From: Eledone cirrhosa
Lineage: Eukaryota
DNA: 64,000 nucleotides
Assembly: GCA_964016885.1 (NCBI GenBank)
Contig: OZ024741.1
Coordinates: 222,890,001 to 222,954,000, forward strand
Direction of reading: 5' to 3'
Shown: positions 1,878 to 63,206 of the stretch, piece by piece
How positions within the stretch are numbered: position 1 is the stretch's first letter
Layout: every line of letters begins with the position of its first letter
Translations under genes and position numbers: made by a program
Notes under the pieces: generated by a model
What the model was told of the DNA's origin: nothing
What the model saw: only the letters and a program-made list of their open reading frames with translations
The model's database searches: none

Positions 1878-2326
1878 ATATTGTTATACTTTGGGAGGGT
1901 CATGTTGCCAATAAGAAACACACGCACCAGTTGCTTTCACTTCAATTTATTATATATTTATAAATTTACAAATTTATAAATTTCTGGTTGGTTGGTTGGT
2001 TCCACAACCAGATAGTTGTTTATATATAGTCATAGTCCTTTCGTCACACACTCTGTGACCTCTTCAGTGACTGGGGATTCCTTTCTTTGTTTCTGTGCCT
2101 CTCCTTTCTCTGTCCTACGCCATTTTGTTTCTGTGTGTGTGTTGTGTGCTCAGTTTGCGCATGCGCCACATCCGGGTGTCTGTGTGTGTTTATGTTCATT
2201 TATCTATTTGTTTATTTATTTATTTATTTATTTACATTTATTATAAATTTATAAATATATAATAAATTGAAGTGAAAGCAACTGGTGCGTGTGTTTCTTA
2301 TTGGCAACATGACCCTCCCAAAGTAT

Positions 2327-4629: not shown

Positions 4630-7510
4630 CATTCAGGATCGCGTCACAGGCATGCGTTTCCTGGTCGACACCAGTGCTGAAGTCAGCATCATCCCGGTTT
4701 TCTGCGTTCCTGGAAAAAGGAAAGAAACACCAGCCTGACTCCATGCGGTGAATCATTCACCTATTCCGACCTACGGAGAGTAGTCCCTGGCACTAAATTT
4801 AGCACTACGCCGCACTTTCCAGTGGGTATTCGTTATGGATAAGCTGCTGACCCCTATTTTCGGGGCTGATTTTCTTCAGCACTTCTCACTGCTAGTGGAC
4901 CTGAAAAACTGACGACTCGTTGACAACTCCACTGGTCTCGCTGTGCGTGGCATAGCCGCTCGGACAGCTACAGTCAGCCAGTTATTTCACGATCGGCAAC
5001 AACAACCCGGCACAACCATATAATCAACAGATACCCAAACGTAGCTCGACCAGTATTCAACGCCTGCCCTGTAAAACATGACGTTACTCACCACATAAAA
5101 ACACACGGCCCACCTGTCGCTGCACGACCTAGAAGGCTACCACCAGACCGGCTGAAGTCCGTCAAACAAGAATTTTAGCACACGCTGGATCTCGGCATCA
5201 TACGTCCGTCCAGCAACAACTGGTCCTCACCCATACATTGTGTACCCAAGAAGTCGTCGAACGACTGGCGAATCTGTGGCGACTACCGTGCACTTAACAA
5301 CTGCACCGTGCCTGACTCTTATCCAGTGCCTCATCTACAGGACTTCTCTCTCTCGCTGCACGGCGCTCGCATATTTTCGAAGATCGATCTTGTGCGAGCT
5401 TATAATCAGATACCTGTGGAGCCCGCTTATATTCCTAAGACCGCCATCACAACACCCTTTGGAATGTTCGAATTCCTGCGTATGCCTTTCGGTTTGCGCA
5501 ATGCAGCGCAGACATTCCAACGGTTCATCGATACAGTCACCAGAGGTCTACCTATTGTATACGCATACATCGACGACTTACTGGTGGCAAGCGGCTCCGA
5601 AGGAGCACATGAGAGGCACCTGCACCTGCTATTCGAACGTTTGCGTGAATACGGAATTGTTAACAACCCCAGCAAATGTGAGTTTGGAGTTGCGTCCCTT
5701 AATTTTCTGGGACACATCATTGATGAAGATGGTATTCGCCCACTTAAGGAGAAAGTCAAATCAATCATTGATTTTCCACAGCCCACATCTCTCCGCAAAC
5801 TGCGAGAATTCCTTGGTCTGGTGAACTTCTACAGAAGATTTATACCCACTGTGCAGAGACAGCCCAACCGCTCACAGATTTGCTGCGGCAGCGAACAACC
5901 AAAAACGCTAAAAAGAATGTACCGCTTTCGCTGAGTTGAAGAAAATGTTGTACGAGGCTACAATGCTGAGTTATCCCAAACCTGACGCGCCAATGTATGT
6001 ATTGACTGATGCATCCGATTTCAGAGTTGGAGGTGTGCTTCAACAACTCTCTGGCGATATTTGGCGACCTGTATCTTTTTTCTCTAAGCGATTAAAATCC
6101 GCCGAAACTAAGTACAGCACATTCAGTCGTGAATTATTGGCAGCATACTTTGTTGTCAAGCATTTTCGACACATGTTAGAAGGTCGTGTGTTCTCCATGT
6201 ACACCGACCACAAACCACTAGTGTACGCGTTCAACGCCAAGCCTGATCGCTACTCACCCAGGGAGGTCCGACATCTGGACTTCATTTCTCAGTACACTAC
6301 TGATATTCGGTACATTAAGGGTGCCACCAACTCAGCAGCTGATGCCCTGTCGCGCATGGAGCTTAACGCAATCCACACCACTGCCACTATCGATCTCCAG
6401 AAGATTGCAGCGGATCAACAGGATGATGAGGAACTGTTACAGCTCCGGAAATCATCCTTGAAATTGCAGGAATGCCCGCTGCCCTCTTCTTCAGGTTATA
6501 TTTGGTGCGACATCTCCACAGGCCACGAGCACCCATACGTGCCCCGGAAACATCGACGCGACGTTTTTTCGGCACTGCATTCTCTGGCACATCCTGGCGT
6601 CCGTGCCACGCAGAAACTGATGGTTGCCCGCTTTGTGTGGCCCAACATCATGAAGGACACCGCGAATGGGCTAGGAACTGTATCGCATGCCAGAAGGCGA
6701 AAATTCACCAGCACATCAAAGCCCCGATCGGTTCTTTCGCAACACCTGATGCACGGTTCCAACATGTGCACATAGACATCGTTGGACCTTTGCCTCCTTC
6801 TCACCTGTGTCGACCGATTCTCTCGCTGGCCAGAAGCTTTTTCTCCTGACGGATATTACCGCGGAAACTGTCGCCAAAACACTAGTTATTTCACTGGGTT
6901 TCGCGTTTCGGCACACCCGCGACCATCACTACGGATAGAGGACGTCAGTTCGATTCGAACCTCTTTACCGAGCTGACTCGTCTCGGGTGTAAACAGATCC
7001 GTACAATGGCGTATCACCCTGCAGCTAACGGCATGGTTGAACGTTTCCACCGTCAGCTAAAAGCAGCCATCAAGGTTTATGCAGACTCCACTAACTGGTT
7101 CGAATACCTCCCACTCATTCTTCTTGGTATTCGTTCCACTGTTAAGGAGGGAGCCGGACATTCTCCGGCTGAAATGGTTTATGGCACGGTACTCGCTCTA
7201 CCCGGGCAAATGATCGCTCCTATTTCGCCACAAGAACTTCCAGACCCAACAAAATATGTGCACCGTTTACGGTCATCGATGTCGCATCTGTCTCCTTCAG
7301 CCCCTAAACAACAGCACGTTACTTCACAACTACCAAAAGACATCGATACATGGACGCATGTTTTCGTTAGAAATGACGGTATTCCATCGCAACTTCGTCC
7401 GCCGTATTCCGAGCCCTATAAGATAATACAGAAACGCCCTTAGTATTTCGTCCTCGACTTGAACGGGAAACAAAATACCGTCTCCATTGACTGTTTAAAA
7501 AAAGTGTCCA
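4630..7510 (+). pseudogene. Gypsy pol (PR-RT-RH-IN), disrupted
   Basis: ORF fragments 4538-4738, 5308-5934, 5936-6775, 6472-6849 and 7006-7443. Confidence 0.93.
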
Positions 7511-8060
7511 TGGAACAGGATGTGCCACCATTACCCACCGTTTCTCCAGCAGACTCACCAACAACTTTGCCCGACACAAACACGACAAATTCTGAACAAC
7601 CCCCCACACACCAAATCTGGAAGAACAGTTCGATGGACCACGCTATACGTACAAGTTTATCGGGTAAGTACAAATTATGCATCTGGTCGACATTTCGGCT
7701 AATTTGTACATTTCAACGAATCGGCCAATTTCTGTGGTCATGAACTATTGCTACACACAAATCAATTAACTCTGTGCATCATACACATCAAAAGAACAGA
7801 CAAAAGAACATTTTTCCGTTTCTATGAAATGAACGAACTTTTAATCAACAAACTTTTCGTACGAACATTTTCAATATTATGTAACATCACAGTACATTTT
7901 CCTGCATGTAAATTTGTTTTCTTTCATTTCGCCTGTTTGTAAATGACTTTCATGTATTTTTTTTCTGATTTTTTTCAACAACACACCTAGTCATACCTAT
8001 CTTAATTTCACATACACATAGATCGTTCGATCTTTAGCTTTCTCACTGGAAGCGGGGTAC

Positions 8061-8821
8061 TATAACGGCGGCAAGCATTCGAAACCGAATCTGAGCTTTC
8101 CCGCCTCTGGGACAAGCCGTGGTTAGTTGTTTACACCTGGCAGATCAACCCCTTGGGAGATGCTAAACACAGGTCAGATGTTGTTTATACCTGGCAGAAA
8201 AGAGGTCAGATGATATATCCATCCTTCTAACTTCAACCGTTATAAATACAAGGGTTGTTTACGCTCGGCAGACCAATCCCTTGGGAGATGCTAACCACAG
8301 ATGAGGTGATATATCTATCTTTCTAACCTCAACCCTTATAAATAGAAGGGTTGTTTACACCCGGCAGAAAAAGTGAGACCACAGATAAGAGCAGACGTAT
8401 TTTCACCAACGCTGTCAATACTCCCTTCACGAAAAACCAGTCTGTCCACTAATTTCTCACACGCCACTCCCGCCTGGCTGATCGAATCCTACTACTGCTA
8501 AGACAAGAAAGTATACTAATACGCACACACGCACACATAGTAAGTTCACACTGCTTGCATTTTTACACGCACCATTTCTGTCTGTCATATTGTATCTTTC
8601 AGATACAATACAAATTATATTATAATCGTATTCTGTGATACTTGTATTTTCGTGGCTCGAAGAACCACCAACTTATTGTACGAATATTTCATGTTATAGA
8701 TGTTATCATTCAATATTCAAATTGAATATTGTTATAATAAAATAAATATTGTAACAACACAATCTTGGTATTATTCTTTGCATTGAAATCATCATACCAA
8801 CAATTCCACTTACTCGTTACA
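8061..8821 (+). repeat. 3' LTR (761 bp)
   Basis: Direct repeat of 3722-4482, preceded by a purine-rich tract. Confidence 0.95.
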
Positions 8822-33559: not shown

Positions 33560-36500
33560 GGTGTATGTGGCTCAGGTGTGTGGGCCCGTTTAAGTCTATC
33601 AAACGCAATGGTCTCTCTGGATCCCTTAATGTCTACAGTGAAATGTTTATCAGAACGAGCTAATACACGGTAGGGTCCTGAGTACGGTTGTGTGAGAGGT
33701 GGTCTCACAGCATCATTTCTTACGAACACGTGTCCACGAGGCAATATCCCTCGGGACTGCAGCTTTAATAGTTTGTTTCCTAGTATTCATGGGCGGTAAG
33801 TCCTGAAAATAGGAGCGCAAACGAGATACATAGGAAACAGGGTCCTGGAAAGCAAGATCAACAGGGGCAGGCATTTGCCCAGGCAACGCTAGAGGAACAC
33901 CATACAGTAATTCGGCCGGGGAGAACCCAAGGTCCTCCTTTATTGATGACCGAATTCCTAACAACACAATAGGAAGGTACTCGCTCCAACATTGAGAGTC
34001 TGGATAGGTGCGAAGAGCAGCCTTTAATTGGCGGTGGAATCGTTCCACCATTCCGTTCGAAGCAGGGTGATAGGCTGTGGTCCGAATCCGTTGAGCTCCA
34101 ATTATCTTTGTGAGTTCAGAGAAAAGATGACTCAAATTGTCTACCACGGTCTGTGGTGACTGTAGTTGGTACCCCAAAGCGGGTAATCCACCCTGATACC
34201 AGGGCAGGCGCTACAGTCTCAGCAGTTATACCTTGTAAGGGGATGGCTTCAGGTCAAGAGGTACGAATATCCACTGCTGAATAGCCAAGGTCCAACAATC
34301 TCAATGTGGATGTGTTGAAACCGAGCATCTGGAGTACTGAAAGTACCAAGTGGAGTCCGGATGTGTCTGTGGACTTTAGATTGTTGGCACTGTGTACAGG
34401 AACGGCACCAGGCAGTAATTTCTCGCCTCATATTGGGCCAGAAAAATTAGCCGTTATAAGCTTTACTGTGACAGAAATTCCTGGGTGAGAAATGCTGTGC
34501 AAAGCAAGGAACACAATTCGACGGTGAATCTCAGGAACAAATGGTCGTGGTGAATCCATAGATACATCACATAGAATCTGCCTGTCGGTCGACAATGGTA
34601 GATATTTGAAGATGCAGGTTGGTCTGCAGCTAAACGACCTAAGTTGATCTCCTGGGATGATGAGATGGAGCTGATTGGCAAATGCGTCTGCAGCTATGTT
34701 ATGCGAGCCAGCAATGTGCTGGATATCATTTGTAAATTGCGAAACGTAGTCCAGGTGCCTTGTCTCTCTGGGCGAATATCTGTCGGCTTTAGCCCTCAAA
34801 GTGAAGGTCAGAGGTTGTGGTCGGTTAAAACAGTCAAATTTCTCCCCTCAAGAATATGAGAGAAATGTTTCACCGACAGATATATGGCTAATAATTCCCG
34901 CCCAAACGTGCTGTAACGCGTTTCTGCTGGTTTCAGCTTCCTCGAGAAAAATGCCAAAGGTTGTTGGTTTCCAGCGTTGAACTGCTCCCACAGCGGTATC
35001 AGATGCATCGACACAAAGCGAAAGCTTGGCCTCTGGTACCGGGTGGGCTAGCAAAGATGAACTAGCGAGTGCTGTCTTGGAAGTCTTTAAGCTGTCCTTG
35101 TGTCAAGGAAATATCCTCATTCTTCTTGCAACGATTTTTCAAAATGTCTGTGAGGGAAGATAGCAAATTAGCACAATGAGGAACGAAACACCTATAGAAA
35201 TTGATTAGGCCTAAGAAGTGACGCAACTGGTGGGGGTAAATCCTGTATGGCTTGAACTCGCTGAGGGAGCAGCCTAATACCTTCGGCGTCGATGAGGTGG
35301 CCTAAAAAATTCAGCGAAGTGGAACCGTAAACACACTTTGCAGGATTCACACGAACGCGGTAATCCTGAAGTCGCCGAAATAAGAGATGCATGTGGCGCA
35401 TATGCTCTTCCGGAGAGGAACTAGCGATGAGAATATCGTCTATGTTAGCATAAACAAAGTCCAGACCACGAGTGACTTCGTCTATGAACCGCTGAAAAGT
35501 GCTAGCGGCGTTCCTGAGTCCAAAAGGCATGGGCAAAAATTCAAAGGATCTGAAAGGAGTTGTAATCGCCGTTTTCGGAATATCCTCCTTCCTGACCGGA
35601 ATTTGGTGGTAGGCTCGCACTAAATCTAGTTTTGAGAAAATCTTACACCCCTGCAATGAAGATGCGAAATCGTGGAGATGGGGAATGGGATACCTATCCG
35701 GGACGGTCATAGCATTTAACCTCCTATAATCCCCAGTGGGTCTCCAGTCGCCGGAGGTCTTGGGCACCATGTGTAACGGTGAAGCCCAAGGACTCGTAGA
35801 TGTGCGAATAATGCCCAGCTGCAGCATATGGTCGAACTCTGACCGTGCTGCTTTTAATTTGTCCGCCGGTAAGCAGCGTGGACGTGAGAACACTGGGGCG
35901 CCAGATAAAATGCTCCGTTGTGTGAGTCGGTTCAACAACTCAAAAATTTCCCTGAGTAAGCTGTGGGAAAGAATTCAACAATGAATGATAGGGATTCCCA
36001 GCATTAGCGATGAAAAAGATAGGGTATGGCAAATCGGCAACCGTAAAAATCCACTTTAAAGCCCTACAAAGATTTGAGAGGAAGCGAGATTTGCCCATAC
36101 GTCTTTATAGACGAGTGATTAACTGCCTGCAGAGTAATGGATGATTCTTCGGGGGTATCTTTCAGGCAATGGACCGGCCAAATACTACAGGAGGCTCCTG
36201 TATCCACGAGGAAACCTCTTCCCGACATAAGGTCCTTAATGAAGAAATGGCGGTTTGGCGGCTTTATGTTGAGGTCAACTGCCTCCATCAGTGGACCTCT
36301 TAGGCATTTCCCGCCTTATGAAACGAGCAAGGTTGCACGCAGTGGTTCGCTCTCTCGGCGAATCACTCATGGTACCAGCATAAAGATGAAGCTGGTGATT
36401 TGGAACGGCATCTAAAAGATTGAGATCTGCGACTGCGGGGGCGCGAACGGGCACCACACCAGACCGTCATCTTCTGGAGCTCCAGGGTGGGTTCCTGAAT

Positions 36501-38095: not shown

Positions 38096-38878
38096 CTAGC
38101 AGAATGGCCCGGCGTTGCTCGGGATTTGCTGTAGAGGTTCTTATATATTTGATATATATTTATCCTTATCGAACCTCGTGAAATAAATACGTTTGTTTAT
38201 ATTTTGTTATTGTGCATGCAAAAATATCTACACGAATATATATATATATATATATAAAAGTACAGAATACCTCGGCCCTGGGATGGTGTCTACATTTTGT
38301 GCTTATGAAAAAAAATTTTTTCCGTGTGAAGAAAATCACTACTTTATCGCGAAATAAATACTTTTGTTTATATTTTGTTATTGTGTATGCAAAAATATCT
38401 GTACACGAATATATATATATTAAAATAACAGATTAAAGTTTAAGCAAAGAATCACTGCTTTCACCCTTAACAGGATCTTCTGAAGCTAAAAAAATCAATC
38501 TGTGAACGCAGAAGTAAATATTTCGAAAAACGTTACACACTATTTATATATACACACACACTATATATACATATATACACACACGCACACCGCGTCATAA
38601 TGACGTAATGCAGACAGCCAGGCATACAGACAGATATTATAAGGGCACAACGTTATATCTATGTATCTATCTAAAAAGAGAAAGACTAAGAATTATAGAA
38701 AGAGATCGCTAAATCACCTAATGCGGTCCCTAGGGCATTGAAAATTTGAAATATTTTTTTCTCAAAACACTCACAGGACCATAAATATTACATGTGTAAA
38801 GTCTGAAAACAATCGGTTGGGTGGTTCTCAACTTTTAGTGATCGGACAGACAGACATTCTCTGTTTTAAATATATAGA
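38096..38878 (-). mobile_element. Non-autonomous Helitron, tandem with a partial copy at ~37990-38095
   Basis: Same termini as 15551-16434; CCCGGCGTTGCTCGGG hairpin next to CTAG. Confidence 0.7.
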
Positions 38879-39275
38879 CTAGCAGAAAACCACCCGGTGG
38901 GTGGTTTTCTGCTAGTCGATATATATTTAACACAAACAGACACACACACACACACATATATACACCCATGTTCATATTTTGAGATGCATTATTCTCAAAT
39001 CAGATTATTATCTCTGACAGGAAGGACCAGTTTATAATTTTTAAGAAAAATTAAGCAAACACATATTTTAGGAAACTTATGAATTCCTGTACACACACAC
39101 ACACAAACACTTACACAGATACACACGCACAGACACACACAAACACTTACACAGATACACACTTAAACCTATATATATGTATATATATAGAGACACACAT
39201 AATATACATATATAATATATATATATACACACCTATATATAAAACACACGCATATACGCATACACACATATATAT

Positions 39276-40932
39276 ATATACAATATTAAAGAAATGGAAA
39301 CTATATTTATAAAACCATATTTATTTCATTATACATATTTCAGGGATACCATATTAAAAATATGGCATGCCTTCAGATAAAATACAATATATAAGCAGTT
39401 TTATAAATAAATTTGACGTACCATAAATATTGATCAACTTTTATGTAAGAAGTTGGTTTGGTAGTGAGATGTTTATAAATATTTAGTGTTAAGCACAGTT
39501 AGAAAGAAAGATGGAGAAAAGGAAGAAATATATGTAAAGAAAAACAGAGAGAGAAATAGTGAGGTGAAAAATGAGAGGCAGCTGAGGCAACAGATGAATA
39601 ATAATAATTCATCATACAAATTGAGAGATTTAGGAGGGAGGGAGTACTGTAATTATTTATTTATTTAGTTATAGTGTTAAGGAGACGGAGAGAAATAAAA
39701 AATAAATAAAGAGAAAACAGAGAGGTAGAGAAAGATAGAGGTGGGGGGGAAAAGAGGTAGACCGAATAATAATAATTATATATGGGGAGGTGAGAGAAAT
39801 AGGAGAGAAGTAAGAGAAAACAATAGAGAAGCTCGAGAGGCAAAGTTAAAATAACCGATACTTAAATTTCATCATGTATAGAGGGAGGAGAAGAAAGAGC
39901 TATATCTAGAGAGAAGGATGATAGATTTACAACTTTACGTTATGTCCTATCAATTTGAATTATCAATTCATATGAATTGGGTATTATAATGTAAATATCA
40001 ATATTCATGAATGAGACATAGATATATAATGTGTGAAAAATAATGACCATATGTTTAGTTTAAAAATTCTTAGGTCGATGTACCAAAAACTGAGATAAAA
40101 CTTCAAAAAATACGGAAATACATAAGTATATATGTACTTTCCGGAAAAGTACATATATACTTATGAATTTTTAAACTAAACATATGGTCATTATTTTTCA
40201 CACATTATATATCTATGTCTCATTCATGAATATTGATATTTACATTATAATACCCAATTCATATGAATTGATAATTCAAATTGATAGGACATAACGTAAA
40301 GTTGTAAATCTATCATCCTTCTCTCTAGATATAGCTCTTTCTTCTCCTCTCTCTATACATGATGAAATTTAAGTATCGGTTATTTTAACTTTGCCTCTCG
40401 AGCTTCTCTATTGTTTTCTCTCCTATTTCTCTCACCTCCCCATATATAATTATTATTATTCGGTCTACCTCTTTTTCCCCCCACCTCTATCTTTCTCTTT
40501 ATTTATTTTTTATTTCTCTCCGTCTCCTTAACACTATAACTAAATAAATAAATAATTACAGTACTCCCTCCCTCCTAAATCTCTCAATTTGTATGATGAA
40601 TTATTATTATTCATCTGTTGCCTCAGCTGCCTCTCATTTTTCACCTCCTCACTATTTCTGTTTTTCTTTACATACATTTCTTCCTTTTCTCCGTCTTTCT
40701 TTCTAACTGTGCTTAACACTAAATATTTATAAACATCTCACTACCAAACCAACTTCTTACATAAAAGTTGATCAATATTTATGGTACGTCAAATTTATTT
40801 ATAAAACTGCTTATATATTGTATTTTATCTGAAGAAGGCATGCCATATTTTTAATATGGTATCCCTGAAATATGTATAATGAAATAAATATGGTTTTATA
40901 AATATAGTTTCCATTTGTTTAATATCGTATAT
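39276..40932. repeat. Giant near-perfect inverted repeat (~790-bp arms)
   Basis: 39276-40069 is the reverse complement of 40165-40932 with few indels; inner hairpin at 40121-40165. Confidence 0.95.
40821..40886 (+). ncRNA. Type-I hammerhead ribozyme motif
   Basis: UAUUUUAU CUGAAGA AGGCAUGCCAUAU-UUUUA-AUAUGGUAUCCCU GAAA UAUGUA UA AUGAAAUA. Confidence 0.65.
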
Positions 40933-41013
40933 CTACTCCAAAACTTGTTGAGTGCTTTATATCAGTTATAAAATATTTACTTGTTGTAACCCAACAATTT
41001 TAAATAAAACTTT

Positions 41014-41049
<36 letters not shown>

Positions 41050-51639: not shown

Positions 51640-51672
<33 letters not shown>

Positions 51673-51679
<7 letters not shown>

Positions 51680-51987
51680 TAAAAGGAATTCCAACTTTGT
51701 TTGATTTACTCGTTTTATTTACAATCCTTTAACATTTATAATGGTATTAGAATGAAATAGTATGGTAGAATATTAAATGTTAAGTTTGCAATTTTCAACA
51801 GTTGAAAATTGCAAACTTGACTGTCACCACACATTATGGACCTGAAGATTGCGAAAGCATGAAAGTACTTGTTCAATTAACACTTAATATTCTACCATAC
51901 TATTTCATTCTAATACCATTATAAATTTTAAAGGATTGTAAATAAAACGAGTAATCAGACAAAGTTGGAATTCCTTTTATTAATATA
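51673..51987. repeat. Fold-back element with inner hairpin and hammerhead
   Basis: Arms 51673-51783 and 51877-51987; perfect hairpin at 51782-51818. Confidence 0.9.
51837..51875 (+). ncRNA. Minimal type-I hammerhead ribozyme motif
   Basis: UGGAC CUGAAGA UUGC-GAAA-GCAU GAAA GUAC UU GUUCA; palindromic GUAC in place of helix III. Confidence 0.7.
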
Positions 51988-51989
51988 AT

Positions 51990-52625
51990 CTTCTATACAC
52001 AATCATACACACCCGTGTCGAACAACTGCTGTCAAGGGTGGGACCGATCCGGTTGACCACCGAGTCTATTGAAACGATCAAGCCGCCTCCCCTCTTCAAA
52101 AACGAAGGAGAGGCGGTGTTTCTGTGTGTAATAGCCATGGCAAAAGAGGTTGTATGGTGGACGCGTCTGAAAGGACTGAGGTCAGACACCTTTCTCTCTG
52201 GCCAACAACTGGTCCGTTTCTTCCGATATCATTTCGGAAGAAGGATCAGGATGGAGAGAGAGAGATGCTGCACCCCAGCCGTTTTTATGAAAGATGGGTG
52301 AAAGTGGCGAGAATGGCCCGTGTGAATGGGCCTTCACTCTACATCAGACTATAGGTGAGGAAGATGAAAGATCAAGGGAGCACCCCCTCTCTGTGCTCGT
52401 GAGGAGAAGAGTTGCACACTTTTTTTCGGGGGTGCATGCGACCCCCCCCCCCCCCAAGGCGCCTCCTCCCTATTGAGGATTTTGTTATTAAATTTATTTT
52501 TGTTATATTTTATTTTATTTTTATATCTTGTTATTGCCTCCTCCTTATTGAGGACGCCTTTTTATGTAAACTCCCCCCATTGTACTTGTCCCACTTTTTT
52601 ATGCCCTGGTGGCAAATAAAAAGAA
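51990..52625 (+). mobile_element. Tx1/L1-like LINE 3' fragment
   Basis: AMAKEVVWWTR...FFRYH...IRMERE...FYERW, then pyrimidine-rich UTR and AATAAA. Confidence 0.55.
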
Positions 52626-53009
52626 AGTTATATATATATATGCACAACACGTATATATTTACATACATGCATATTGATAAGGAATGAAACTGACATCTAT
52701 GTAAGATATTCTTTTTAAAAAGTATAAGAATGATAGAATGAAATAACTAGACAATAACTTCAAAAACTTTTCTGTATATTGCTATGCTTCACCTCCATCA
52801 CCTTGTTTAAATCTATTTCTCACTTTCATCCTCCAAAGTTTTCCCTCTCCACATACTTCCTGTCTAATTTTAGCTATCTCTCTCTTTCTTTTCTCTCTAT
52901 ACTCACTAATGATACTCTTTCTCTTTATAGTTCTCCAACTCCCATGCCTACTATCACTTTGATCCTCCTCACATACATGCAAAGTCACAAATATATCACC
53001 CCCTCTCTC

Positions 53010-53046
<37 letters not shown>

Positions 53047-53251
53047 ATATATATACATTATTATATTTGGGGAGGGTCATATCGTTATAATATTGCCAGA
53101 AATAATAACAGAACACACTCACTGTTTGGTTTCAATTGGATTTTGCTCTGTATCTTTTATATCTCCATAGTTAATTTATCTGGCAATCAATGTTTATCAT
53201 TGATTGACCAACAGTTAAAAATACAAATATATATATATATATAGTCTAGTC

Positions 53252-53295
53252 TATCAAAGTTCTTTCGTCACACATCTGTGACATCATCAGTGGTA
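53252..53295 (-). ncRNA. Minimal type-I hammerhead ribozyme motif
   Basis: UACCA CUGAUGA U GUCACA-GAUG-UGUGAC GAAA GAAC UU UGAUA; same family as 2028-2072. Confidence 0.6.
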
Positions 53296-53378
53296 CTATT
53301 ATGTTTCCTCTCATTGTTTTGTAATGCCTGCGCCATTGTTATTTAATTTATATATATATATATATAGTATAATTAATA

Positions 53379-56120: not shown

Positions 56121-56185
56121 TATTTTATCTGATGAAAGCACACCATAATTTAACTTGGTGTCCTTGAAATATGTATAATGAAATA
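56121..56185 (+). ncRNA. Type-I hammerhead ribozyme motif
   Basis: UAUUUUAU CUGAUGA AAGCACACCA-loop-UGGUGUCCUU GAAA UAUGUA UA AUGAAAUA; covaries with 40821-40886. Confidence 0.65.
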
Positions 56186-58742: not shown

Positions 58743-61700
58743 GGGGCTTGTGGAAGCTGGTCCGTCGCGGCCGAGGTAGCTTTGAGCGATCTTGGGGTTG
58801 GTGGCGGTGCGTTCCAGAGATTCCTCTGCAGGCGCACTCTTTGTAACACCATGGCGATGTTACGTGATTGAACACGCCCTCGGGGCGCCTCCTTTGCTTT
58901 GTTTTAGACCTTTCGGGCCCATCGATGGCGACCTCCCGTAGGATCTCACCTTGGCCGAGCTCGCCCCCCCCCTCCACTGGGCTTAGTGTCGGCCGTTGGG
59001 GTCCAGTCGCCAACGTTCGGGCTCCCCGTTCTTTGTTTTAGACCATTCGAGCCTATCGATGGCGACCTCCCATAAAAACTCACCGTGGCCGAGCCCGCCC
59101 TCCCGACTTAATCTGGGACGGGTGTCGGCCGTTGAGTTACAGTCGCCATGATCCGTACATAGTCCAAACCAGTCGCCATGATTCGTACATAGTCCAAACA
59201 TCCAATCTCGCAAAATCCGAAATCTGTATTTTTTGTTATTTATTTAAGGTTTAAATACGGTGTTTTTGTCGTATTGAACAGAACAAATCTTGCAGTTTTG
59301 CTTTTTGTTAAATCGCTTGTTAAACATTCATAACCTTCCAGCTAGCTACCCCATACCCCTCCCACCCGCCCCCACACACCACCATTCTTAATACGTGGAC
59401 CAATCATAAGCCAGAGCCCCCCCCCCCACGCATCACCATTATTATTATAAGCCAGACCCCCCCCCCCACGCATCACCATTATTATTATAAGCCAAACCCC
59501 CCCCCCCACGCATCACCATTATTATTATTACGCGAACCAATCATAAGCCAGAGGCCTATACTATCGCTTGCCCGGTTGCCTTCGATATATGATGGATGGA
59601 TGGATGGACGGACGGACTGCGGAATCCTGGAGAGTGGAAGGGAGAGAAAAATCTGGACGCTCAGAGCGAAAATGCCAAAGTTAAAGTCAAATTCACCTCG
59701 TGGACGAGAATGCGAGAACTCCTCTTTGTTTCGTCCGCGGATGGCTAACATAACCCTATCTCCCCCCGCCCCCCACCACCCCCACCCTCCAAACGCAACC
59801 CAAAACTTCAGAGTTGGTACCATAAATGTAGGCACCCTAAAGGGTCGCGCTAACGAGGTTGTAGAAATGCTTGAACGTAAGGAGGTCGATGTTTGTTGTA
59901 TTCAAGAGACCAGGTGGAGGGGTGGGTCTGCTAGATTCATTGAGGGTAAAAAACGATGTTATAAGCTTTTCTGGGTGGGAAACGACGATGGGCTGGGTGG
60001 AGTAGGAATCATGGTAGCAGAAAAGTGGGCAGATAAGATAATAGATGTAAAAAGAGTGAACGACAGAATAATTAAAATACGACTTGTCCTCAATAGAACT
60101 ACGGTGACAGTAATATCTGCGTACGCACCCCAATCCGGACTGCCCGGCACTATAAAAGACAGATTCTATGAGACACTGTTGCTAACTACCTCCCAAATAT
60201 CTGACAGTGACTATATAATTATTGCAGGTGACCTAAATGGTCACGTTGGACAACATTGTGACGGCTACGACAAAATTCATGGAGGCTATGGGTTTGGTAC
60301 TAGAAATGAGGAAGGCTCCAGAATCCTGGAATTCTGTGATGCAAATAACCTAACTATCTGTAACACTAACTTCAAAAAACGTGACAATCACCTGATCACC
60401 TATAGATCCGGGCAACACACAAGCCAGGTAGATTATATCCTTACCAGAAGACGTGACAGAGTGTCTGTTGTAAACACTAAATCCCTCCCCCATGAAGAAT
60501 GCACCTCCCAACATAGACTGATAATTAGCGACCTCATAGTCAGGACGAGACGTACTCGACAGCAGAAGAGGACTATCCTCAGGAGGAAAATATGGAAGCT
60601 AAAGGACCCCACAGCCAGAAATAAATTTCAAAGCATATTACTTGATGCTTTCGACAGTAAGGAAGAGCATCTAGAATCGGACAATATAGAGGGACAGTGG
60701 GAATTTCTGAAAGCAAACCTGCTGTTGGCGACAGACGAAGTCTGTGGCTGGAGCAGGCCTGTAGGCAGGAGGAGAGTAACATGGTGGTGGAACAGTAAGG
60801 TGGAGGGGTCAATTAAGGCCAAAAAGCAGGCTTGGAAAGTATGGCGGGATGGGGGAAGTAGAGTAGACTATCAAGTGGCCAGGAGGGAAGCTAGGAGAGA
60901 AGTGTACTTAGCAAGAAGGGAAGCTGAGGAAAGAAAGTTCAAGCATGTTCTACAACGCGATGACCAAAAACGTGAGGTGTTCAGGATTGCTAGGCAATGC
61001 GTCAAGGAAAGCCGTGATATTGTCGGGGAGAAGTGTGTACTTAACGATGATGGCATACTTGCCATCACCGACACTGATAAGAAGGTAGCTTGGAAGTGTC
61101 ACTATGAAAGGCTACTAAATGAGGAGAATAAATGGGAGAACGACAGTCTCCCCCATATCGACCCAATAGAGGGACCAGCAGTGTTAGTCGAGGGGAGTAT
61201 AATAAGTAAGGCAATCAAGGATATGAAGATGGGTAAGGCGGCTGGGCCTTCGGAAATAGTTGCTGAGATGCTGAAGGCATCTGGCACGGTGGGACACACC
61301 ATGGTCACCCGCATAGTTAACCAAGTCGTACAGAATGGGGTTGTTCCGAAGGACTGGCATAGCAGCAGCATCGTTAACTGTTATAAGGGTAAAGGAGACG
61401 CCCTAGATAGGAGTAACTATAGAGGCATTAAATTAATCGACCAGGTCATTAAGGTCACGGAAAAAGTAATAGCGCAACTAATCAGAGAGAGAATTGACCT
61501 AGACGAAATGCAGTTCGGGTTTGTGTCAGGCAAAAGCACCACAGACGCTCTTTTCATAGTACGACAACTACAGGAGAAGTACCTAGCTAAAGGTAAACCC
61601 CTCTACTTAGCTTTTGTCGACCTGGAGAAAGCCTTCGACAGAGTCCCCCGCTCCATTATCTGGTGGGCTCTTAGAAAACTAGGCGTTGACGAATGGCTTG

Positions 61701-63206
61701 TGAGGGCTATACAAGCCATGTATAAAGAAACAGTCAGCAAGGTTAGAATTAACAACGAATATAGTGAAGAGTTTAGCGTAAAAGTTGGCGTCCATCAGGG
61801 CTCTGTTCTCAGCCCCCTACTATTTATTATTGCCCTTCAGGCTATAACAGAGGAGTTCAAGACAGGCTGCCCATGGGAACTCCTATACGCAGACGACCTG
61901 ACACTCATAGCGGAATCAATGGCCGAGCTAGAGAAGAAATTCCAAACATGGAAGCACGGCCTAGAGTCAAAAGGACTTAAAATTAACCTGGCTAAGACCA
62001 AAGTTCTAGTTTGTAGGAAAGAAAACAAGGCGGCGGTCCCTTCTGGGAAATGGTCGTGCTCGGTATGTAGGAAAGGCGTAGGTAGAAACTCCATCTTATG
62101 TCCTAAATGCAAAGTATGGGTGCATAAAAGATGTAGTGGGATCACAGGTAAGCTAACTAAGAACATAGACTTTACATGTGGCCGATGTTCTGGTGCAATA
62201 AGTAGCAGCAAGTGCCCAAAAAATACTAGCTCTTTCAATTGCGCAGAGGGTTCTATAGAAATAGTGGACAGCTTCCGTTACCTGGGCGATAAAATCAGCA
62301 GTGGGGGAGGGTGCTCTGAAAGTACTGTAGCTAGAGTCAGAACTGGTTGGAAAAAGTTCAGAGAGCTTATACCACTATTAGCTGCTAAAGGGTTCTCCCT
62401 AAAAATGAAAGGCAGGTTGTACGATGCCTGCATACGAACAGCAATGTTGCATGGCAGTGAGACCTGGGCATTGTGTGCAGAGGATATACGCAGACTAGAG
62501 AGGAACGAAGCTTGCATGCTCCGCTGGATGTGTAACAGTAATATACGTGAACGGCAAAGCATAAACGAACTAAGGAAAAAATTAGAGATAAGGGGGATCA
62601 GATGTTGTTTACTCGAGAGAAGGCTACGTTGGTATGGACACGTGATGCGCATGAAAGTCGATAGCTGTATAACAAAGTGCAGGGCAATAAAGATAGACGG
62701 TAGCCACGGAATAGGCAGACCTAGAAAAACCTGTGATGAGCTGATAAACTCCGACCTCACACACTTACACCTCTCCAAGACAATGTCACTGGACCGAGAC
62801 CTTTGGCGGTACTCAGTAACAGAGAAGACCCGCCTTGCCAGTAGGCATCTCTAACAAAATACACCCCGTCCCGCCACCACCCCCACCCCATCCACACCAC
62901 CCGTTCTATGTAAAGTTATGTTGGTGCCGCGCCATCCAGGCCGAAACAAATGAGATCGTGTAGGTGTCACGACAAAAAAACACACAGTCCACGCTGTAAT
63001 GTGGCCGTGTAGGCAACACGGTAAAAACCTCCCAGACCCACACTGTAAATGTGGTTGGTGTTAGGAAGGGCATCCAACTGTAGAAAACCTGCCAGACAGT
63101 CCTATGCGAGCAAGACAATCACTCTTGCCTCAAGTGGGACTACCCCCGTCCAAACCCATGCAAGCGTGGAACACGGACGTTAAACGTTGATGATGATGAT
63201 GATGAT
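58743..63206 (+). mobile_element. Full-length RTE-clade LINE in a COPB1 intron
   Basis: GATT duplication at 58739-58742 and 63207-63210, ~0.9 kb structured 5' UTR, single ORF, 3' UTR with tandem repeats and a (GAT)n tail. Confidence 0.9.
59672..62854 (+). CDS. RTE ORF: AP endonuclease + reverse transcriptase with PHD-type finger
   Basis: Frame is open from 59576 (first ATG 59672, alternative 59741). APE motifs IQETRW, SAYAP, GDLNGHVG, QVDYIL, SQH; RT motifs FVDLEKAFD, GVHQGSVLSP, YADD, FRYLG; RTE-type C-terminus LRWYGHV...GRPRK. Confidence 0.95.
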   Translation: MPKLKSNSPRGRECENSSLFRPRMANITLSPPAPHHPHPPNATQNFRVGTINVGTLKGRANEVVEMLERKEVDVCCIQETRWRGGSARFIEGKKRCYKLFWVGNDDGLGGVGIMVAEKWADKIIDVKRVNDRIIKIRLVLNRTTVTVISAYAPQSGLPGTIKDRFYETLLLTTSQISDSDYIIIAGDLNGHVGQHCDGYDKIHGGYGFGTRNEEGSRILEFCDANNLTICNTNFKKRDNHLITYRSGQHTSQVDYILTRRRDRVSVVNTKSLPHEECTSQHRLIISDLIVRTRRTRQQKRTILRRKIWKLKDPTARNKFQSILLDAFDSKEEHLESDNIEGQWEFLKANLLLATDEVCGWSRPVGRRRVTWWWNSKVEGSIKAKKQAWKVWRDGGSRVDYQVARREARREVYLARREAEERKFKHVLQRDDQKREVFRIARQCVKESRDIVGEKCVLNDDGILAITDTDKKVAWKCHYERLLNEENKWENDSLPHIDPIEGPAVLVEGSIISKAIKDMKMGKAAGPSEIVAEMLKASGTVGHTMVTRIVNQVVQNGVVPKDWHSSSIVNCYKGKGDALDRSNYRGIKLIDQVIKVTEKVIAQLIRERIDLDEMQFGFVSGKSTTDALFIVRQLQEKYLAKGKPLYLAFVDLEKAFDRVPRSIIWWALRKLGVDEWLVRAIQAMYKETVSKVRINNEYSEEFSVKVGVHQGSVLSPLLFIIALQAITEEFKTGCPWELLYADDLTLIAESMAELEKKFQTWKHGLESKGLKINLAKTKVLVCRKENKAAVPSGKWSCSVCRKGVGRNSILCPKCKVWVHKRCSGITGKLTKNIDFTCGRCSGAISSSKCPKNTSSFNCAEGSIEIVDSFRYLGDKISSGGGCSESTVARVRTGWKKFRELIPLLAAKGFSLKMKGRLYDACIRTAMLHGSETWALCAEDIRRLERNEACMLRWMCNSNIRERQSINELRKKLEIRGIRCCLLERRLRWYGHVMRMKVDSCITKCRAIKIDGSHGIGRPRKTCDELINSDLTHLHLSKTMSLDRDLWRYSVTEKTRLASRHL

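What the first reader, a model, noticed from the sequence alone, without database searches (positions are those of the whole stretch)
51673..51987. Same arm-hairpin-arm architecture in an unrelated family, with a minimal hammerhead
Seen: ~110-bp inverted arms, a perfect 18-bp hairpin with a 1-nt loop at the junction (AAGTTTGCAATTTTCAAC-A-GTTGAAAATTGCAAACTT), and a minimal hammerhead with a GUAC palindrome in the spacer. The sequence is unrelated to the 39-41 kb element, yet the design is shared. Inference: the junction hairpin is a mechanistic scar (snap-back priming with template switch) of non-coding, ribozyme-bearing retroelements.
Basis: partly seen in the sequence, partly recalled or inferred. 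Interest (0 to 1): 0.7.

Follow-up and report, generated by a model that had tools for sequence, protein, structure and literature searches.

The report
Head-to-head Penelope retrotransposon stub
This hairpin is one of thousands of short back-to-back end pieces of a protein-coding Penelope-type jumping gene, a layout already described for this class; its junction was made at insertion, and the family's junctions pile up at what is likely the RNA's start and at the ribozyme's predicted cut site.

Summary
In detail: ~112-bp inverted arms, an 18-bp hairpin and a minimal type I hammerhead. It is not a non-coding element of its own. It is the terminal 198-nt repeat (pLTR) of an autonomous Penelope-like element (RT + GIY-YIG), laid head-to-head in (TA)n with a ~31-nt tail at one end; the hammerhead core has 6,224 exact hits in the genome. 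The hairpin is absent from the parent and was made at insertion. The 'spacer' is not a design: the left arm folds back 18 nt, then skips 67 nt (with its hammerhead) by 4-nt microhomology. Inverted pLTRs, junction palindromes read as self-priming, one-sided tails and minimal hammerheads are all published for this class. Extra, inferred from copies only: 67 of 100 arms start within -1..+11 of one base 31 nt behind a TATA box; 35 junctions sit on the hammerhead cut site (control 4); 50 of 51 palindromes are tail/no-tail. This favours two cDNAs joined at their 3' ends over pure snap-back. No RNA data. The scan reported the same pattern before, in this genome and in others.

The parts
51642..51671 (.). 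(TA)n target microsatellite at the left end
   Evidence: sequence; family ends lie in (TA)n
51672..51785 (-). Left arm: pLTR positions +85..+198 in inverted orientation, no tail
51782..51785 (-). 4-nt microhomology (ACTT) joining pLTR +21 to +89; 67 nt skipped, including this arm's hammerhead
   Evidence: the same jump found at 2 places genome-wide, the other with a different centre and the tail on the other arm
51782..51818 (.). Junction hairpin: inverted copy of pLTR +4..+21 next to the start of the full arm; commonest junction type of the family
   Evidence: 546 exact copies of the 29-nt centre; absent from the parent
51798..51987 (+). Right arm: complete pLTR starting at +1 (51798, predicted transcription start); lacks one 7-nt repeat unit
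   Evidence: loose ends of DNA contigs at 51798 carry the parent's upstream sequence
51836..51876 (+). Minimal type I hammerhead, predicted cut between 51870 and 51871 (pLTR +73/+74); palindromic AGTACT for a dimer helix III
   Evidence: family junctions at +74
51988..52018 (+). One-sided tail; in the parent it is the start of the 5' UTR behind the first pLTR
52019..52630 (+). Unrelated later insertion: 5'-truncated LINE-like 3' fragment at the tail end (not part of the element)
   Evidence: sequence; translation; no Pfam hit; L1/Tx1-like label is recalled

Best explanation
This is a likely dead, head-to-head pair of terminal repeats (pLTRs) from a protein-coding Penelope-like retrotransposon, inserted in (TA)n, whose central hairpin was made at insertion, likely when two cDNAs primed on opposite target strands were joined at their 3' ends. 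Steps. (1) Shown: the 198-nt unit and tail are the end and the start of a 4.2-kb element coding RT + GIY-YIG. (2) Inferred: RNA starts at the A of ACAGTTG, 31 nt behind a TATA box that lies outside the stub, so stubs cannot be transcribed from their own promoter. (3) Inferred, in line with in vitro work on another Penelope-like element: the enzyme nicks both strands of (TA)n and starts one cDNA at the pLTR end and one ~40 nt further on, which gives one end without and one with the tail. (4) Inferred: a cDNA that runs off the RNA 5' end pairs through the imperfect palindrome ACTGT, with itself or with the partner cDNA, and this yields CAAC-W-GTTG. (5) In this copy the extension ran 18 nt and then jumped by ACTT microhomology to position +89 of the tailless arm; a later deletion would look the same. 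The hammerhead is the ordinary pLTR ribozyme and likely cuts a minority of transcripts as a dimer.
For: Parent: L111 carries a 775-aa frame with RVT_1 (E 2.9e-6, under the curated cut-off) and GIY-YIG (E 3.3e-6, over the cut-off), followed 350 nt later by the unit. Copy number: 6,224 exact hammerhead-core hits. Fixed start: 67 of the first 100 hits on C1 begin at -1..+11, 28 exactly at +1; 24 run further upstream; 9 begin at +15..+46. The TATA box sits at -31 in two subfamilies that differ between TATA and +1. 5 of 25 long copies keep the TATA upstream of a full first pLTR. Junctions vary between copies; the commonest occurs 546 times. Tail rule: 50 of 51 complete short palindromes are tail/no-tail, as are 24 of 24 cut-site palindromes with both ends called, of 30 loci. 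In those 24 the arm that reaches the cut site is tailless in 12 and tailed in 12, so a single fold-back could not supply the tail in half. Two templates: arms differ at polymorphic site +35 in 14 of 46 and at +37 in 8 of 46 pairs, against 2.9% background. 20 loci have both arms complete to +1 with one G/C between them. Cut site: 35 exact junctions at +74 against 4 at a perfect 8-nt palindrome 8 nt upstream (pattern 7 nt longer). Of 100 arms anchored at +92, 10 begin at +68..+87 and 0 at +47..+67. Literature: both strands cleaved and extended, two start sites bounding the tail, predicted dimer (PMC11167929, parts 1-2 of 4 read).
Against: Arms share rare variants far above random pairing (31 against a null mean of 2.4; 24 of 51 pairs), and 3' diagnostic sites are nearly always concordant (discordant in 4 of 49, 2 of 48 and 1 of 51). 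7 of 27 shared variants occur in no other arm of 256. That fits one template, or later conversion between arms. The main junctions also fit intramolecular fold-back with loops of 3-5 nt. The cap signal is mixed: after TATAT the base before +1 is G 44, C 11, A 2, but flanks themselves favour TATATG over TATATC (p = 0.82 against locus background, 0.011 against window background); only the lack of A stands out. The hammerhead is non-canonical (U.U closing stem II, cut after UU) and was not assayed. In PMC11167929 no reads began at the cut site and cleavage was not needed in vitro. The 51 palindromes are not a random sample: many were fetched by junction patterns or by likeness to the window copy.
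Confidence: 0.62

Rival explanations
1. Same element, but a single cDNA folds back on itself and copies the whole arm; one end is then trimmed at the pLTR end by the endonuclease, and differing arms come from later gene conversion.
For: Shared rare variants, 31 against 2.4, some private. Junctions match fold-back with feasible loops, and repeated micro-fold-backs occur. Published reading: self-priming (PMC3846280) and an endonuclease-made tail (PMC8557442, passages).
Against: Haplotype discordance at +35/+37. 20 junctions with both arms complete to +1 and a single base between them. In long copies the two arms start hundreds to thousands of bases apart without a hairpin.
Confidence: 0.27
2. 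A separately replicating non-autonomous fold-back element (MITE- or retrozyme-like) whose palindrome is inherited from a short master.
For: Most copies are short and share one start (67 of 100); one junction recurs 546 times.
Against: Junctions differ among copies, and the loop base occurs in both orientations relative to the tail. Stubs carry the same subfamily markers as long copies. The TATA box lies outside the stub. No tandem arrays were seen in 76 insertions.
Confidence: 0.07
3. The arm-hairpin-arm shape of this copy arose after insertion, by a microhomology deletion in one arm of a full palindrome. This changes only step 5 and is compatible with the best explanation.
For: 4-nt microhomology; deletions of this kind are reported for Penelope copies (PMC3846280); internal gaps away from the junction also occur.
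Against: The hairpin tip is kept and the skips start next to it in most of the 13 cases, several with an extra C at +1. Palindrome instability usually removes the tip (own knowledge).
Confidence: 0.3

Closest known systems
Endonuclease-positive Penelope-like elements with inverted pLTR and one-sided 30-40-bp tail (PMC3846280: passages and Discussion read; PMC8557442: passages read; PMC2377424: passages read)
   Same: Partial tandem pLTR-ORF-pLTR parent, inverted 5'-truncated copy head-to-head, palindrome at the inverted junction, tail at one end, AT-rich microsatellite target, promoter in the pLTR region.
   Different: Here most insertions are only the two pLTRs. Their junctions fall at two fixed points of the sense RNA, whereas PMC3846280 argued for self-priming on an antisense template. 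The parent has a TATA box upstream of the start, while D. virilis Penelope has a TATA-less internal promoter.
Minimal type I hammerheads of Penelope-like pLTRs (PMC4209133, parts 1-2 of 4 read; PMC6765202, passages)
   Same: Core boxes, short stem I, palindromic loop III suited to dimers, location in the pLTR; opposite-strand pairs 100-700 bp apart were already noted.
   Different: Stem II is short (3 bp) and closed by U.U rather than the conserved G10.1-C11.1; the predicted cut follows UU.
Poseidon element of Anolis in vitro (PMC11167929, parts 1-2 of 4 read)
   Same: AT-rich target, both strands nicked and extended, two start sites bounding the tail.
   Different: Different clade (the parent here has the CX4CxxC linker); the hammerhead lies upstream of the ORF start here; that work saw no RNA ends at the cut site, whereas genomic junctions here cluster on it.
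L1 twin priming (recalled; only search listings seen)
   Same: Two target strands prime cDNA and the products join by microhomology, giving an inversion.
   Different: Here both cDNAs cover the same RNA segment, giving a duplicated palindrome.
Non-LTR retrozymes (10.64898/2026.07.22.740005, part 1 of 5 read)
   Same: Non-coding, hammerhead-bearing, derived from pLTRs.
   Different: Retrozymes are head-to-tail tandem arrays; these stubs are single or head-to-head.

Membership tests
EN+ Penelope-like element (parent) | RT followed by a C-terminal GIY-YIG endonuclease | tested here: met
   RVT_1 at aa 299-439 (below cut-off), GIY-YIG at aa 687-773 (above cut-off); GLKF, DKG and YLDD motifs visible
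EN+ Penelope-like element (parent) | CCHH motif with two cysteines between GIY and YIG | tested here: met
   LIYCIKCPNCEELYVG with downstream histidines; definition from PMC8557442
EN+ Penelope-like element (parent) | Single ORF | tested here: not met
   two overlapping frames offset by -1 in L111; 40 of 40 scored copies identical over the overlap; may be read as one protein by frameshift or splicing, untested
EN+ Penelope-like element (parent) | Partial tandem structure forming pLTRs | tested here: met
   L111 and 5 of 25 long copies
EN+ Penelope-like insertion unit | Inverted 5'-truncated copy, head-to-head | tested here: met
   window copy; 45 of 76 insertions sampled on C1
EN+ Penelope-like insertion unit | 30-40-bp tail at one end only | tested here: met
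   window 51988-52018; 50 of 51 palindromes
EN+ Penelope-like insertion unit | AT-rich or (TA)n target | tested here: met
Neptune / Nematis clades | CX2-5CxxC linker between RT and EN | tested here: met
   CNDNRCGTC; definition in PMC8557442
Neptune / Nematis clades | RT phylogeny placing it in one of the two clades | not tested
   no reference set was fetched
Minimal type I hammerhead | CUGANGA and GAAA boxes, stems I and II, palindromic loop III | tested here: met
   cofold gives an intermolecular helix over AAGUACUU (-17.0 kcal/mol against -4.5 for the monomer)
Minimal type I hammerhead | G10.1-C11.1 pair | tested here: not met
   U.U in the window and in nearly all of about 190 arms
Minimal type I hammerhead | Self-cleavage | not testable with these tools
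   indirect only: 35 junctions at the predicted site against 4 at a control
Non-LTR retrozyme | Head-to-tail tandem units, each with a hammerhead | tested here: not met
MITE / fold-back DNA transposon | Conserved termini and centre inherited from a short master | tested here: not met
   asymmetric ends, variable junctions, RT-coding parent

The most novel reading that the evidence does not exclude
Thousands of these stubs map, to the base, the capped start of the Penelope-like RNA and an in vivo hammerhead cut, and show that each insertion uses both reverse-transcription start sites once, on opposite target strands, with two cDNAs (sometimes from different RNAs) joined head-to-head: twin priming by a dimeric enzyme as the normal route to inverted pLTRs.
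Probability: 0.5. Interest if true: 0.55.

Novelty: new member of a known kind. Interest (0 to 1): 0.3.

Why it matters
The locus itself is ordinary. The family matters a little more. How Penelope-like elements make inverted pLTRs and one-sided tails, and whether their hammerheads cut in vivo, are named as open in PMC8557442 and PMC11167929. The copy statistics give sharp, testable predictions: sense RNA, start at +1, cut at +74, one cDNA per start site. A young subfamily (long copies about 99-100% identical) could supply the enzyme for such tests.

Tried and rejected
Rfam scan: no hammerhead family hit. RNA runs: no RNA holder listed, so nothing on expression; three runs of unknown kind, laid as contigs, only confirmed the parent's upstream sequence and the two 3' ends. 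PDB sequence search with the RT-EN frame: 0 hits. Search for longer proteins fusing ORF1 to RT: none of 2,628 candidates scored, weak evidence. Pfam on ORF1: nothing above cut-off; on the LINE-like fragment: 0 families. Cap-G test: mixed once flank background was counted. Idea that skipped arms re-enter at the hammerhead cut site: re-entry points spread over +26..+177, 6 of 13 at +63..+92, too few and chosen after the fact. No ORF was found within 1 kb upstream in 7 long copies of the 39-41 kb family; not pursued. Lunse et al. 2016 on hammerhead dimers was not held; seen only as a reference. No target-site duplication can be read inside (TA)n. Paper searches for frameshifts in EN+ elements and twin priming in Penelope-like elements listed nothing on point; figures and supplements of PMC4209133 and PMC8557442 were not seen and may bear on the hammerhead variant and the frameshift.

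Full report
Observation. The arms, the 18-bp hairpin with its 1-nt loop and the minimal hammerhead are at the stated places. The arms differ at 4 of 112 columns. Rfam does not detect the hammerhead. The window lies in a 3.0-Gb genome at G000:C2:222,890,001.

The family. A search with the hairpin and right arm gave 580 candidates, 40 scored. Most of the 30 loci fetched were not arm-spacer-arm shapes but full palindromes of a ~200-nt unit centred on the same hairpin, each arm with its own hammerhead, in (TA)n, with a ~40-nt extension at one end. The 25-nt hammerhead core occurs 6,224 times exactly. The window copy is the same thing with a skip: its left arm holds unit positions +4..+21 and then +89..+198, joined through ACTT. 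That exact join occurs twice in the genome; the second copy has another centre and the tail on the other arm, so it arose separately. In 13 of 91 arm-pair readings a short fold-back is followed by such a jump, at scattered positions.

The parent. Copies picked by the hammerhead alone often run further upstream, and there the sequence before the hairpin centre is not palindromic. L111 is an 8.7-kb head-to-head pair of full-length copies. It codes a 775-aa frame with GLKF, DKG and YLDD motifs, a CX4CxxC linker and a GIY-YIG domain with the internal CxxC. By the definitions in PMC8557442 (passages) this is an endonuclease-positive Penelope-like element of the Neptune/Nematis type; no tree was built. 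The unit is its pLTR, and the tail is the start of the 5' UTR. The window copy carries the markers of an older subfamily than L111; L112 is a broken long copy of an older subfamily.

Where arms start. Among the first 100 hammerhead hits on C1, 67 arms begin at -1..+11 of one A, 28 exactly on it; 24 run further upstream and 9 begin at +15..+46. A TATA box lies 31 nt upstream of that A in two subfamilies, and 5 of 25 long copies have it in front of a complete first pLTR. I infer that +1 is the transcription start and that stubs are promoterless by-products of the parent's RNA. An extra G before +1, as a cap would give, is seen in 44 of 57 (TA)n-flanked starts, with 11 C and 2 A. Against flank background the G:C ratio is not clearly significant, so this is only consistent with a cap.

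The hammerhead cut. L111's centre sits on the predicted cut, +74. That exact junction occurs 35 times; the junction expected at a perfect 8-nt palindrome 8 nt upstream occurs 4 times (with a longer pattern). Of 100 arms anchored at +92, 58 start near +1, 23 are long, 9 start at +15..+46, none at +47..+67 and 10 at +68..+87. One long copy starts at the cut site directly in (TA)n (L238). This suggests that a minority of templates are cut. The motif is non-canonical and cleavage was not assayed; PMC11167929 found no RNA ends at the cut site of its element.

Hairpins. In 76 insertions sampled on C1, 31 were scored as single arms and 45 as head-to-head. A perfect stem of at least 8 bp was found at 27 of 35 junctions with both arm starts inside the pLTR and at 0 of 10 junctions in longer copies, two of which are doubtful pairs. 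So hairpins mark run-off at an RNA 5' end, not inversion as such. The commonest centre occurs 546 times, with many variants.

One cDNA or two. 50 of 51 complete short palindromes have the tail at exactly one end. So do 24 of 24 cut-site palindromes with both ends called, and there the arm that reaches the cut site is the tailless one in 12; a fold-back of that arm cannot supply the tail. Arms differ at +35 in 14 of 46 and at +37 in 8 of 46 pairs against 2.9% background, several times by whole circulating haplotypes. 20 loci join two complete arms with one base between. Against this, arms share rare variants 31 times against 2.4 expected, and 3' subfamily sites are nearly always concordant. This fits one RNA, one source locus, or conversion. 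The sample is biased toward loci fetched by junction. I put two target-primed cDNAs joined at their 3' ends at about 0.6 and snap-back with later trimming at about 0.27. The family assignment itself is near certain.

The 39-41 kb element. It is a second, unrelated repeat family (2,148 candidates; alignment score below shuffled mean) with a hammerhead near its end and a longer one-sided tail. Its window hairpin is copy-specific, centred on a native 10-nt palindrome, again with a skip in one arm. No ORF was traced for it.

What is known. Inverted pLTRs with palindromes at the junction, read as self-priming, are described in PMC3846280. The inverted copy, one-sided tail and microsatellite bias are in PMC8557442, minimal hammerheads in pLTRs in PMC4209133, and two start sites with both strands extended in PMC11167929. 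My searches listed no paper that maps junctions to the start and cut sites or counts tail asymmetry, but the library is partial. After my reading was formed, the scan's notes showed 32 similar findings in at least 10 genomes, one in this genome; a look-up by sequence found none. They are unchecked and not independent support.

Verdict. Real, a new member of a known kind, low as a locus. The copy statistics give moderately useful, testable hints on an open mechanism. Interest 0.3.

Noticed in passing
L111:4981-6330 and 6237-8564 (G000:C1:21871600-21881200): The parent's coding region is split into two frames overlapping by -1 at a T TTT TTA heptamer in the upstream frame. 40 of 40 scored copies are identical over this stretch and the older copy L112 keeps it. 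Possible programmed -1 frameshift in an endonuclease-positive element; the downstream fold is weak (-6 kcal/mol) and an intron is not excluded. PMC8557442 Fig. 1 legend mentions frameshifted ORF1 in some types; the figure was not seen.
   Followed up: partly
L111 and L221-L245: A very young subfamily: long copies 99-100% identical, including an 8.7-kb near-perfect palindrome of two full-length copies centred on the hammerhead cut site; an assembly artefact was not excluded.
   Followed up: partly
window 39290-41020: Second hammerhead-bearing, Penelope-like family with ~800-bp arms and a ~80-nt one-sided tail; a related diverged hammerhead lies near 56129. Several copies begin near window position 40657 in the alignments, next to a low-complexity stretch, so this may be an alignment edge.
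   Followed up: partly
window 52019-52630: 5'-truncated LINE-like 3' fragment sitting directly at the tail end of the stub, itself a high-copy repeat.
   Followed up: partly
window 38877-38917: Perfect 19-bp hairpin with a 3-nt loop at the end of another repeat; resembles Helitron/DINE-type ends (recalled, untested).
   Followed up: no
window ~53250-53298 (-) and ~2030-2075 (-): Two further hammerhead-like motifs with a related stem II (GTCACAGA...GTGTGAC), probably a third family.
   Followed up: no
window 59324-62854 (+); 5179-7443 (+); 33713-35974 (-): A 1,176-aa open frame of LINE type (endonuclease, RT) and two broken Gypsy-like pol regions (labels from recalled motifs).
   Followed up: no
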